From a virus (Duplodnaviria > Caudoviricetes), in IMG/VR virus record IMGVR_UViG_3300027751_000029, positions 1 to 38,258 of that record: a stretch of DNA of 38,258 nt. The stretch is one strand, 5' to 3'. Shown here one piece after another: positions 20,617 to 24,569 of the stretch. Within the stretch, counting starts at the first letter, position 1, and every line of letters starts with the position of its first letter. The position numbers and the translations under genes are program-made. Below the pieces are notes generated by a model that ran no database searches, had not been told where the DNA came from, and saw only the letters and a program-made list of their open reading frames with translations.

Positions 20617-21253
20617 AGCACTTTTGCAAGCTATCGCGGCGACTGCTGAACTTTGCGGGAAGGTCTACACCCCTGCGGCTGCGGCGATGTTCGCGCAAGA
20701 CTTAGCTGGATTTAATGAATCTGCTGTGATGGCAGCGTTGACACGTTGCCGTAAGGAGTTGGACGGCAAGCCATTCAACGTGGCGGCGGTAATTTCACGG
20801 ATTGACGATGGCCGGCCAAGCGTTGAGCAGGCTTGGGCGATGCTGCCACACGACGAGGAAACCTCCGCGGTGCTGACTGAGGAAATGGCGCAGGCGTGGG
20901 GAGTTGCAAGGCCTTTGCTAAACGATGGCGACAAAATTGGTGCGCGGATGGCATTCAAAGAGGTCTACGCGAAATTATTGGCCGATGCACGAGACCAAAA
21001 AGTGCCGCCGAAGTGGTTTCCTTCTTTGGGTCGTGATGTGGGAGGCCGTCAAACCGCTTTAATGGACGCTGTAAGGCACAACAGACTATCGCTAGGGCAT
21101 GCGGTAGGGTTGCTTCCAAATGAAGCCGCTGAGGGGCTTTTAATGTCTTTAGGTGTTAAAGAGCATCCGCTACTTGCGGCACCAAGCAAAGACGGGAAAA
21201 AACGCGTTGGTGAATTACTTTTATTGCTTAACAAAAAGGTGCCGCATGAGTGA
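20606..21253 (+). CDS. Helicase-loader-like replication protein
   Basis: DGRP...QAWA..P.DE...V.TEEM..AW...D..GARMAF.E.Y family, directly after initiator. Confidence 0.65.
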   Translation: MATKALLQAIAATAELCGKVYTPAAAAMFAQDLAGFNESAVMAALTRCRKELDGKPFNVAAVISRIDDGRPSVEQAWAMLPHDEETSAVLTEEMAQAWGVARPLLNDGDKIGARMAFKEVYAKLLADARDQKVPPKWFPSLGRDVGGRQTALMDAVRHNRLSLGHAVGLLPNEAAEGLLMSLGVKEHPLLAAPSKDGKKRVGELLLLLNKKVPHE

Positions 21254-21908
21254 CTTTAGCCAATTTTTAGCAATCAGAAAAGCCTACGCGAAAATTTTGC
21301 CAAGCTGGCTAGAGGAATACGAGAAAACGGGAGAAATGCGACAAGACCCGTATTTTATGGATTGGATATTCACGCCAATTGAACAAAACGTCTGGTCGGA
21401 TATTCGTTCCCTTGGATTGCCGTTCTACCCACAAATACCAGTGCTGAATTACTTCATTGATTTTGGTTGTCCATTCCTAAAAATTGGAATCGAGTGCGAT
21501 GGTAAAGCGTGGCATGACCATGATCTTGATAAGGCGCGTGATGCAAGGTTGGCGGCAGAAGGTTGGATGATATTTCGCATCGAAGGACATGAATGTAAGC
21601 GCGTTATTGATCCTTGGGAGCAGTGCGTAACTGATGGTGATGAAGAAGAAGATTTTAACCTTGTGAGTAGGTATTTTTTAACTACATCTGAAGGCGTTTT
21701 AAGTGCAATCAAACGCAAATATTTTGATGCAAATGGCGATAACAAATTTTCTTCAGAAATTTATTCAACATTGTTCGAGCACAGGTCAACGCCAGAAACG
21801 TACCCAGTACGTCGAACGGCTAAGGAAAAAGCGCCTGCAATAGTTGGTGATTTATTAAAAGACTACTTGGAGCTCGTTTTAATAAGAGCGCGTAAGGCTG
21901 CAGCATGA
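21246..21908 (+). CDS. DUF559 / Vsr-like endonuclease-domain protein
   Basis: TPIE...Q.PV..YFIDF......IECDG..WH....D..RD..L...GW.IFR. Confidence 0.8.
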   Translation: MSDFSQFLAIRKAYAKILPSWLEEYEKTGEMRQDPYFMDWIFTPIEQNVWSDIRSLGLPFYPQIPVLNYFIDFGCPFLKIGIECDGKAWHDHDLDKARDARLAAEGWMIFRIEGHECKRVIDPWEQCVTDGDEEEDFNLVSRYFLTTSEGVLSAIKRKYFDANGDNKFSSEIYSTLFEHRSTPETYPVRRTAKEKAPAIVGDLLKDYLELVLIRARKAAA

Positions 21909-23231: not shown

Positions 23232-23323
23232 AGGTAAAGTTAGACAAAATAGGCAGTGCAATGCCTTTACACTTTGCGTAAAATTAGCGTCATATTAGAT
23301 AGTCTGAACAACTGTCACCAAAG

Positions 23324-23351
23324 AAAGCCCCGCATAAAAACGGGGCTTTTT
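23324..23351 (+). terminator. Rho-independent terminator (tR'-like)
   Basis: AAAGCCCCG-cataaaaa-CGGGGCTTT + T run. Confidence 0.8.
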
Positions 23352-23366
23352 GCATTGGAGCGCCAC

Positions 23367-23507
23367 ATGTACATCACAAAGCAGCAGCGTGAAAAGTACG
23401 AGCGTGAAGCGCAGAAAGTACGCAAGCCTGAGCCGTCGCGCAAGCAGATAATGCGCGAACTAGGCCGCGACTTGATCGACGCACAGCGCAATAAAGATTG
23501 TAAGTAA
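23367..23507 (+). CDS. Small basic protein (46 aa)
   Basis: GGAG RBS, MYITKQQREK...PSRKQIMRELGRDLI. Confidence 0.55.
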   Translation: MYITKQQREKYEREAQKVRKPEPSRKQIMRELGRDLIDAQRNKDCK

Positions 23508-23508
23508 A

Positions 23509-23640
23509 TCTGTAAATTCCCATGGGGTTCATAATTATCTGTGAATCTGTACGGGGTTATATTTCTGTAAATCCCTACGGGGTAGGAAAATATGTGTAAA
23601 TTCCCATGGGATTGGGTAACGTACAAATCCCCATGGGGCT
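23509..23640. repeat. Five imperfect 21-bp direct repeats, period 26-29 bp
   Basis: Units at 23509, 23538, 23564, 23593, 23620; consensus TCTGTAAATYCCYAYGGGGTT. Confidence 0.85.
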
Positions 23641-23654
23641 AACACGCATGACGT

Positions 23655-23864
23655 TCAGTCGGACACTGACAGTTTATTTTGCTGTAGTTTGATCAAGAAC
23701 AGCTCAAAAAGAGCCGCATCCATTTGACGATGTTCTTTTGACGTCGTGGGCTGCTCCCAATTTTGCCAACATCGCAACGACTTGCCGATAAGCGCAGCCG
23801 CTGCGGTTTGAGATAGGGGGCCACGCGCGGCGCGGATTTGGTCTGGTGTGGGTGATGTGGCCAT
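23655..23864 (-). CDS. XRE-HTH regulator resembling anti-CRISPR-associated (Aca) proteins
   Basis: PTPDQIRAAR..LSQTAAAALIGKSLRCWQNWE...RQMDAALFELFLIK; last gene of a 3-gene operon. Confidence 0.7.
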   Translation of the reverse strand: MATSPTPDQIRAARGPLSQTAAAALIGKSLRCWQNWEQPTTSKEHRQMDAALFELFLIKLQQNKLSVSD

Positions 23865-23866
23865 GA

Positions 23867-24130
23867 TTAGCCGCGATCTGCTTGAGCTACATTTCTTTCA
23901 TAGTCAATCAGTTTGTTGATGTTTGACTCGATGATTTCTGCTGCGTCTTCAGCAGTGTCCATGTCAAACAACTGCGGCATACCAAGCGCGCGAGTTACCT
24001 GCCTGAAATTTACAAGCTTCGTTTGAATTTCGCGTGATGTAACTTTTACTGCGTCGCTTGGGATTACGCCGTTGATGAACCAGTCTTTTTGAATCGCGTC
24101 CGCTAATTGTTGCGCGTTTAATGTAATCAT
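23867..24130 (-). CDS. Hypothetical protein, candidate anti-defence factor
   Basis: Strong RBS TAAGGAG; 87 aa; upstream of Aca-like HTH. Confidence 0.7.
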   Translation of the reverse strand: MITLNAQQLADAIQKDWFINGVIPSDAVKVTSREIQTKLVNFRQVTRALGMPQLFDMDTAEDAAEIIESNINKLIDYERNVAQADRG

Positions 24131-24176
24131 GTGTATCTCCTTAGTTAAGCCGCATGTTCGGCAGTATATTTAATTA

Positions 24177-24398
24177 TTAAGCTTTTACGCTGTATTTTTC
24201 GTTAAGTTCTTCAAAAATTGACTTGCTGGATTCATCAAAAAAAGTTGTGATTGTTTCGCCTTGATCGAGCCCGTCAAGATAGTCAGCAAAGAATCGAGGC
24301 GCGCTAACTTCAATCGTTGAATCTTCGAGAGTCGCGCCAACAAAAGTAATTCCATTGATGCAATCGGCTTGATAGTACCCATGTTGAAATGTAGTCAT
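24177..24398 (-). CDS. Acidic hypothetical protein, candidate anti-defence factor
   Basis: AAGGA RBS, ATG 24398, 73 aa D/E-rich; first gene after promoter. Confidence 0.7.
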   Translation of the reverse strand: MTTFQHGYYQADCINGITFVGATLEDSTIEVSAPRFFADYLDGLDQGETITTFFDESSKSIFEELNEKYSVKA

Positions 24399-24448
24399 GA
24401 TAGTTTCCTTGTTTTCGTTGCCGCTGAATTGCTGCATCCGATAACTGA

Positions 24449-24476
24449 ATTATATACTCATTGAGTGCATAAGCAA
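24449..24476 (-). promoter_or_regulatory. Sigma70-like promoter with palindromic operator
   Basis: TTGCTT-N16-TATAAT; palindrome TTATatACTCAtTGAGTgcATAA (24450-24472) spans the spacer. Confidence 0.7.
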
Positions 24477-24540
24477 GCACTTTATGAATTATTTTGCAGA
24501 GATGCAGAAAAGATACATCTACCCTGCGTAATGCAGATTC

Positions 24541-24569
24541 GCCCACTCATGCAGTGGGCTTTTTTATTT
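24541..24569 (+). terminator. Rho-independent terminator upstream of terS
   Basis: GCCCACT-catgc-AGTGGGC + TTTTTTATTT. Confidence 0.75.

What the first reader, a model, noticed from the sequence alone, without database searches (positions are those of the whole stretch)
23655..24476. acr-aca-like moron with two unrecognised candidate anti-defence proteins
Seen: a 3-gene operon inserted against the late transcription direction between the Q-like gene and terS, with a near-consensus promoter (TTGCTT-N16-TATAAT) whose spacer holds the palindrome ACTCA-T-TGAGT, two small ORFs with strong RBSs (73 aa acidic; 87 aa), each preceded by a short GC hairpin, and a terminal 69-aa XRE-HTH. Known: anti-CRISPR operons have this layout, with Aca repressors binding an inverted repeat in the promoter; the HTH resembles Aca3/Aca10-type proteins by eye. 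Inference: the two ORFs, which I do not recognise as any known Acr, are candidate novel inhibitors of CRISPR-Cas or other host defences.
Basis: partly seen in the sequence, partly recalled or inferred. Interest (0 to 1): 0.8.

Follow-up and report, generated by a model that had tools for sequence, protein, structure and literature searches.

The report
Aca10 cassette carrying two unknown cargoes
A temperate phage carries a swappable three-gene cassette whose last gene and promoter palindrome match the known anti-CRISPR regulator Aca10 and its binding site, so the two small acidic genes in front of it, which match no catalogued family or fold we searched, are likely inhibitors of host defences, possibly of CRISPR-Cas.

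Summary
The 69-aa HTH is an Aca10: its only PDB match is 7XI5 (E 2.8e-9), it is 50% identical to Pseudomonas citronellolis Aca10, and it keeps the three residues shown to bind DNA. The promoter palindrome matches the published Aca10 operator at 15 of 21 bases, in the same register. That motif lies upstream of 75 of 143 Aca10-like genes but downstream of only 2. Ten of 50 such cargo-bearing loci hold AcrIC6- or AcrIF11-like genes. The first slot is swapped for other small genes in a sibling phage and in the same populations. ORF1 (73 aa, pI 4.1) and ORF2 (87 aa, pI 4.6) give confident models with no family or fold match. They also occur apart, so they are not an obligate pair. No known acr was found beside either family or beside the 11 closest HTH relatives. 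Verdict: a real Aca10-type cassette (about 0.9); some anti-defence role for the cargo is likely (about 0.6), CRISPR inhibition less so (about 0.35), and neither is tested.

The parts
24449..24476 (-). sigma70-type promoter TTGCTT-N16-TATAAT (-35 at 24476-24471, 3 of 6; -10 at 24454-24449, 6 of 6)
   Evidence: sequence; 19 of 28 bases identical to, and same spacing as, the acrIC7-acrIC6-aca10 promoter
24451..24471 (.). Aca10-type operator, imperfect 21-bp inverted repeat filling the promoter spacer
   Evidence: 15 of 21 identical to the EMSA-tested IR2 of Aca10; single match in the window; motif upstream of 75 of 143 Aca10-like genes
24417..24438 (-). short 5' leader hairpin
   Evidence: weak here (z -0.9), stronger in sibling L013 (z -3.0); shared by 10 hand-picked leaders, 3 of 5 pairs with a compensatory change
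24177..24398 (-). ORF1, 73-aa acidic alpha/beta protein of a small unnamed family; candidate defence inhibitor; exchangeable slot
   Evidence: homologues at 46-78%; model pLDDT 90; no family or fold match; swapped in L013 and in runs X4, X16
24137..24162 (-). intergenic hairpin plus TAAGGAG RBS; near-copies precede two different genes in L013
23867..24130 (-). ORF2, 87-aa acidic three-helix protein of a small unnamed family; candidate defence inhibitor
   Evidence: 4 distant homologues at 43-52%; model pLDDT 87; no family or specific fold match
23655..23864 (-). aca10-family HTH repressor, 69 aa, with a 5-residue loop insertion
   Evidence: PDB 7XI5 E 2.8e-9, 7XI5 = Aca10; 30 of 60 identical to P. 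citronellolis Aca10; Q19/R31/Q34/R46/E54 = Q22/R34/Q37/R44/E52
24541..24569 (+). plus-strand intrinsic terminator-like site between the cassette and terS (flank)
   Evidence: also present beside the cassette in L013

Best explanation
This is an Aca10-family cassette in which the terminal HTH protein is predicted to bind the palindrome in its own promoter and shut off two small acidic cargo genes that likely disarm a host defence, most plausibly by binding a type I CRISPR-Cas complex. Shown: gene order, Aca10 membership by sequence, an operator matching the tested Aca10 site in sequence and position, accessory status, and exchange of the first slot. Inferred from Aca10 biochemistry: when the phage DNA enters a cell without repressor, host RNA polymerase fires the promoter and makes a burst of ORF1 and ORF2; Aca10 dimers then occlude the promoter and hold expression low in the lysogen. 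The reverse orientation keeps the cassette independent of Q-dependent late transcription. Inferred by association only: the cargo are stand-alone inhibitors. Their small size and negative charge fit DNA-mimic blockers of Cascade or of restriction enzymes. My odds: Aca10-type autorepression 0.9; at least one cargo is anti-defence 0.6; at least one is an anti-CRISPR 0.35.
For: HTH: only PDB hit is Aca10; the family profile gives 7XI5 1e-29 against Aca3 1.8e-5 and Aca2 5e-5 (the profile includes Aca10 itself); DNA-contact residues kept. Operator: 15 of 21, same register. A blind promoter-operator scan of viral contigs returned 14 loci, among them the published acrIC7-acrIC6-aca10 operon, 4 more Aca10-like operons and 4 copies or siblings of this phage. 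Motif upstream of 75 of 143 Aca10-like genes, downstream of 2 of 143, in 0 of 715 shuffles. 10 of 50 cargo-bearing loci hold AcrIC6-like (7) or AcrIF11 (3) genes between operator and HTH. Slot exchange in L013 and in runs X4 and X16. Related phages L009, L041, L048 and L070 carry different cargo before a close HTH, next to terS. Most type I-C Acrs are acidic DNA-binding blockers (PMC7913775, passages).
Against: No known acr lies beside any ORF1 or ORF2 homologue, nor beside the 11 closest HTH relatives (59-70% identity). 25 of the 75 operator-bearing loci have no cargo at all. 6 of the 7 fetched loci with a diverged ORF1 homologue (L010, L011, L031-L034) show no aca10 in the DNA held; in the seventh (L009) a second operator lies between the homologue and the HTH. 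In the founding screen only 7 of 27 aca-linked candidates were active. Only about 420 of nearly 1900 predicted Aca-regulated genes are annotated acr. G49 of the Aca10 dimer interface is Ala here. The host and its CRISPR content are unknown.
Confidence: 0.6

Rival explanations
1. An Aca10-regulated accessory cassette whose cargo is not anti-defence: for example lysogen-expressed superinfection exclusion, competition with other phages, or host-modifying factors.
For: No acr beside the nearest HTH relatives. The Q-to-terS interval of related phages holds mixed accessory genes. PMC13551039 section 23 notes that Aca-regulated genes may act against superinfecting phages.
Against: An autorepressed promoter gives a burst on entry and low steady expression, which suits counter-defence better than exclusion (established Aca logic). 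Both cargo models look soluble and acidic. No PADLOC match in 9 of 9 proteins.
Confidence: 0.27
2. ORF2 and the HTH, or ORF1 and ORF2, form a toxin-antitoxin or other obligate pair.
For: The HTH profile also matches HigA2 and MqsA antitoxins at 5e-6 to 6e-4. Toxin-before-HTH is the HigBA gene order (PMC9410906 passage).
Against: ORF1 occurs without ORF2 (L009-L011, L031-L034) and ORF2 without ORF1 (L013). Close HTH relatives sit behind many unrelated genes. ORF2 is all-helical with no toxin family or fold match.
Confidence: 0.06
3. The active agent is partly RNA: the repeated intergenic hairpin before each RBS acts as a CRISPR-repeat mimic (Racr) or Cas6 site.
For: Near-copies precede two genes in L013 and one here. 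One L013 copy folds as a 7-bp stem with a 5-nt loop, z -2.7. Racrs are known inside acr operons (PMC10651486 section 10). The likeness to a type I-F repeat is recalled and comes from no call.
Against: No CRISPR repeat family among 10 and 9 Rfam matches at E up to 10. No array hit in plasmids. The stem register differs between copies. Intergenic hairpins are already described in aca operons as regulatory motifs.
Confidence: 0.07

Closest known systems
acrIC7-acrIC6-aca10 operon of Pseudomonas citronellolis (PMC7913775, PMC9410881; PDB 7XI5; loci L017, L110, L145)
   Same: Two small acidic genes followed by aca10; HTH 50% identical with the DNA-binding residues kept; 21-bp operator (15 of 21) filling an N16 spacer in the same register.
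   Different: Cargo shows no similarity to AcrIC7 or AcrIC6 in the two pairings tested (ORF1 vs AcrIC7, ORF2 vs AcrIC6; hhalign probability under 1%) or in phmmer searches. The HTH has a 5-residue loop insertion, Q38 to N and G49 to A. The operator arms are imperfect. The leader lacks the second GC-rich stem of the P. citronellolis leader.
acrIF11-aca10-like and acrIC6-aca10-like viral operons (L073-L075; L058, L068, L072, L082, L096)
   Same: Same operator family and layout, showing that Aca10-type HTHs lead several Acr families.
   Different: Their HTHs are more distant (50% for L058; the others fall below the top 25 by score) and their cargo is unrelated.
Aca-regulated uncharacterised cargo and 5' UTR or intergenic RNA motifs (PMC13551039)
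   Same: Unannotated genes under Aca control proposed as anti-defence candidates; a hairpin right after the promoter and between genes; an Aca10-linked 5' UTR motif is predicted there.
   Different: These two families were not found in the one supplement held. Its figures and any tables not held could not be seen. That paper found no RNA binding by Aca10.
Aca3, Aca2, HigA2 and MqsA HTH domains
   Same: Same broad XRE-like HTH fold class.
   Different: Far weaker matches; the single-sequence search finds only Aca10.

Membership tests
Aca10 | Sequence homology to Aca10 above other Aca families | tested here: met
   Only PDB hit 7XI5, E 2.8e-9; 30 of 60 identical
Aca10 | DNA-binding residues Q22, Q37, R44 | tested here: met
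   Q19, Q34, R46 invariant in 10 of 10 aligned sequences; residues from PMC9410881 passages
Aca10 | Dimer-interface residues G49, E52 | tested here: inconclusive
   E54 kept, G49 is A51; only G49Y was shown to break the dimer
Aca10 | 21-bp inverted repeat within the operon promoter | tested here: met
   15 of 21, same register; enrichment 75 vs 2 of 143
Aca10 | Binds the operator and represses the promoter | not testable with these tools
   needs EMSA or reporter
acr-aca operon | Small genes upstream of a terminal aca under one promoter on a mobile element | tested here: met
   (integrase, CI/Cro-like repressors, terminase, portal)
acr-aca operon | Contains a homologue of a validated acr | tested here: inconclusive
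   No hit in Pfam, NCBIfam, PHROGs or PDB; but these libraries also miss AcrIC7 and AcrIC6 themselves, and no full Acr catalogue was on hand
Anti-CRISPR protein (ORF1, ORF2) | Inhibits a CRISPR-Cas system in vivo | not testable with these tools
   needs plaque or CRISPRi assay
Anti-CRISPR protein (ORF1, ORF2) | Homologues lie beside known acr genes | tested here: inconclusive
   None seen in 7 loci with a diverged ORF1 homologue or in the sibling with ORF2; few loci, several short; no context for P0002, P0004, P0005 or P0012-P0015
Type II toxin-antitoxin (HigBA-like) | Obligate linkage of a toxin gene to its HTH antitoxin | tested here: not met
   The three genes assort independently
Racr / solitary CRISPR repeat | Intergenic match to a known CRISPR repeat | tested here: inconclusive
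   No Rfam CRISPR repeat match and no array hit; the SRUFinder repeat set was not available

The most novel reading that the evidence does not exclude
ORF1 founds a new anti-CRISPR or other anti-defence family with a small alpha/beta fold that matches no solved structure searched, and ORF2 a second one. They ride an Aca10 sub-branch that serves as an exchange slot beside terS, where a shared hairpin-RBS spacer lets phages swap inhibitors within one population, so the alleles of that slot form a ready library of untested inhibitors.
Probability: 0.35. Interest if true: 0.75.

Novelty: new member of a known kind. Interest (0 to 1): 0.52.

Why it matters
The layout is known, so the cassette itself is no surprise. 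Its value lies in the cargo. Two unnamed protein families sit under an operator that can be tied to a biochemically tested Aca10 site, and one gives a confident model with no fold match. The operator also works as a bait: it recovered the published operon in a blind scan and marks 71 distinct cargo ORFs, most with no family match. If ORF1 or ORF2 inhibits Cascade or another defence, it adds a new inhibitor class from aquatic phages far from the usual Pseudomonas models, and the slot alleles give a short list for one screening experiment.

Tried and rejected
Family scans of ORF1 and ORF2 found nothing: Pfam, PHROGs, NCBIfam, PADLOC, PDB sequences, ESM Atlas (20: best 0.85, unnamed; 21: none), cultured phages. 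Fold searches: ORF1 had no Foldseek match at E 0.001 in PDB or BFVD and a best VIA Z of 2.6 (rmsd 3.2, 53 aligned); ORF2 had a best Z of 5.4 (rmsd 3.4, 59 aligned, baseplate helices, generic). A missing match does not prove a new fold. Six cargo and HTH peptides occur in 0 papers, and 3 occur 0 times in the PMC13551039 supplement. The search of PMC12248084 supplements was uninformative, as even 'AcrIC7' gave 0. Host assignment failed: the Q-like protein matched 2 of 401 genomes of one betaproteobacterial order, ORF1 and ORF2 profiles 0 of 401 each, and the integrase gave only matches under 30%. The HTH tree (123 rows, 70 columns, quick method, careful search unfinished) is poorly resolved and was not used for claims of descent. 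Four RNA runs gave 7 short contigs within 23319-24543 (3 over the HTH or the 3' end of ORF2, 1 over the promoter, 3 over the 46-aa ORF region); contigs show neither strand nor level and may be DNA, so expression is not claimed. The U6 Rfam match at 24464-24568 (27.7 bits, gathering 44) is taken as chance. The scan's earlier findings held nothing. No complex prediction was run, as no binding claim is made.

Full report
Setting. The window is a virus record rated 100% complete. It encodes an integrase, two opposed repressor-like genes, Sak4 and SSB, terminase, portal, head and lysis genes, so it is a temperate phage. DNA runs that hold this stretch are labelled marine, freshwater, estuary and crustacean metagenomes. 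The host could not be named; the Q-like protein has relatives in 2 of 401 sampled genomes of one betaproteobacterial order.

Observation. The -35 box is 3 of 6, so the promoter scan did not list it. The hairpins are real but weak in this copy. The cassette is 44% GC against 47% for the window, and ORF1 is 40%. Against its 76% homologue in L009, ORF1 differs at 16 synonymous and 18 non-synonymous codons, which fits a coding gene.

The HTH is Aca10. Its only PDB match at E up to 10 is 7XI5, which PMC9410881 deposits as Aca10 (passages read). It is 30 of 60 identical to the 65-aa protein in a P. citronellolis genome locus. That paper shows Q22, Q37 and R44 matter for DNA binding; the window has Q19, Q34 and R46, invariant across 10 aligned relatives. 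E52 is kept, G49 is Ala, Q38 is Asn, and a 5-residue loop is inserted.

The operator is the Aca10 operator. The paper's site is a 21-bp repeat in TTGCAA-N16-TATTCT. The window has a 21-bp imperfect repeat, 15 of 21 identical, in TTGCTT-N16-TATAAT, starting at the same base after the -35 box. A pattern built from these two sites returned 14 viral loci: the published operon, 4 other Aca10-like operons, 4 copies or siblings of this phage, and 5 with no HTH. Of 146 loci fetched with an HTH profile, 143 had a full HTH ORF. The motif (up to 2 mismatches) lay within 2 kb upstream in 75, downstream in 2, and in 0 of 715 shuffles. The set includes the loci that defined the motif and some near-duplicates. 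PMC9410906 (passages) reports repression for a representative pair of each Aca family. Repression here is therefore inferred with high confidence, not shown.

What Aca10-like genes carry. Of the 75 operator-bearing loci, 25 have no ORF between operator and HTH, and 50 do. Ten of the 50 hold a recognisable Acr homologue: 7 AcrIC6-like (two are the published operon) and 3 identical AcrIF11. One holds a cytosine methyltransferase. Of 67 cargo proteins scanned, 3 had a Pfam hit and 2 an NCBIfam hit; AcrIC7 and AcrIC6 themselves had none, so a blank does not rule out a known Acr. Against the reading: the 11 closest HTH relatives (59-70%) have no recognisable acr.

The cassette is accessory and its first slot is exchanged. 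None of 10 other phages with the Q-like gene carries ORF1, ORF2 or the HTH in the DNA held. Sibling L013 has a different terminase module but the same promoter, ORF2 (97%) and HTH, with two other small genes (65 and 84 aa) in place of ORF1. The L013 allele appears as a loose end at 24413 in 2 of 4 DNA runs, and 1 run has a joint that skips 24176-24388. Phages L009, L041, L048 and L070 hold other cargo before a close HTH, also next to terS on the opposite strand. The hairpin-RBS spacer before ORF2 recurs twice in L013; that it serves as the recombination handle is my inference.

The cargo. ORF1 has 4 database homologues at 76-78% and locus homologues down to 46%. Its model (pLDDT 90; three strands, two helices) matches nothing. 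In 6 of 7 loci with a diverged homologue no aca10 was seen; where checked, the gene has its own sigma70-like promoter, in L011 directly before terS (the two records searched whole are 53% and 10% complete). ORF2 has 4 distant homologues among 1.84 billion representatives and a three-helix model (pLDDT 87) with only generic matches. Each gene occurs without the other, so they are independent modules.

Mechanism and odds. The best reading is a burst of two inhibitors on entry, followed by Aca10 shut-off. [quoted passage not shown] In that screen 7 of 27 aca-linked candidates were active. PMC13551039 (abstract, passages, section 23 and one supplement) annotates about 420 of nearly 1900 Aca-regulated genes as acr and lists other anti-defence cargo. 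From these base rates, lowered for the lack of acr neighbours in this sub-branch, I put an anti-CRISPR role at 0.35 and any anti-defence role at 0.6.

Hairpins. The leader hairpin is shared by 10 hand-picked leaders with compensatory changes in 3 of 5 pairs but a consensus energy of only -2.5 kcal/mol. It also precedes ORF1 homologues that lack aca10. PMC13551039 predicts an Aca10-linked 5' UTR motif and found no binding; I could not see its figure to compare. A Racr reading of the intergenic spacer (PMC10651486, passages, section 10 and a supplement search) rests on a recalled likeness to type I-F repeats and had no support from Rfam or a plasmid search.

Verdict. A real Aca10-type cassette, a new member of a known kind. 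Its two cargo families are unclassified in every library searched and are good, untested anti-defence candidates. Interest 0.52.

Noticed in passing
window 23508-23640: Five imperfect 22-nt copies spaced 26-29 nt, each with a palindromic core, begin 15 nt after the aca10 stop. The minus strand folds well (z -3.5). Found only in this phage and its near-copies. Contigs in runs X17 and X4 continue from copy 1 with the sequence that follows copy 4, suggesting a shorter allele. It may be a protein-binding array or the end structure of the cassette transcript.
   Followed up: partly
L013 4440-4956 (same as L018 1881-2387): Two alternative cargo genes (65 aa and 84 aa, the latter acidic) occupy the ORF1 slot; no Pfam, NCBIfam, PHROG or PDB match.
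   Followed up: partly
L011 109-137, L033, L034: ORF1 homologues without aca10 sit behind promoters whose spacer holds a different GC-rich palindrome, suggesting another repressor.
   Followed up: no
L122-L124, L127-L131, L136-L139, L144, L146: Thiobacillus-like and other proteobacterial genomes carry a solo aca10-like gene about 93 nt after a perfect operator, with no cargo; possibly host- or ICE-encoded repressors of incoming acr operons.
   Followed up: no
L049 1551-2704: An Aca10-type operator leads a small acidic ORF and a C5 cytosine methyltransferase before the HTH, an anti-restriction-like cargo.
   Followed up: no
L016/L096 and L082: An unnamed family of about 80 aa sits beside AcrIC6-like genes under the operator in two different phages; a stronger acr candidate by association than this window's cargo.
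   Followed up: no
window 23367-23507 (+): A 46-aa basic ORF with a GGAG RBS follows the late-promoter region and a terminator-like hairpin; no family match; three short RNA-run contigs cover it.
   Followed up: partly
window 24158: Three of three DNA runs that cover this base, and the other assemblies, read G on the plus strand; the window's T is a minority allele or an error that weakens the intergenic hairpin.
   Followed up: yes
window 21153-21908 (+): A DUF559/REase_MTES_1575 nuclease-like gene lies in the nin region; sibling L004 has a different replication module there.
   Followed up: no
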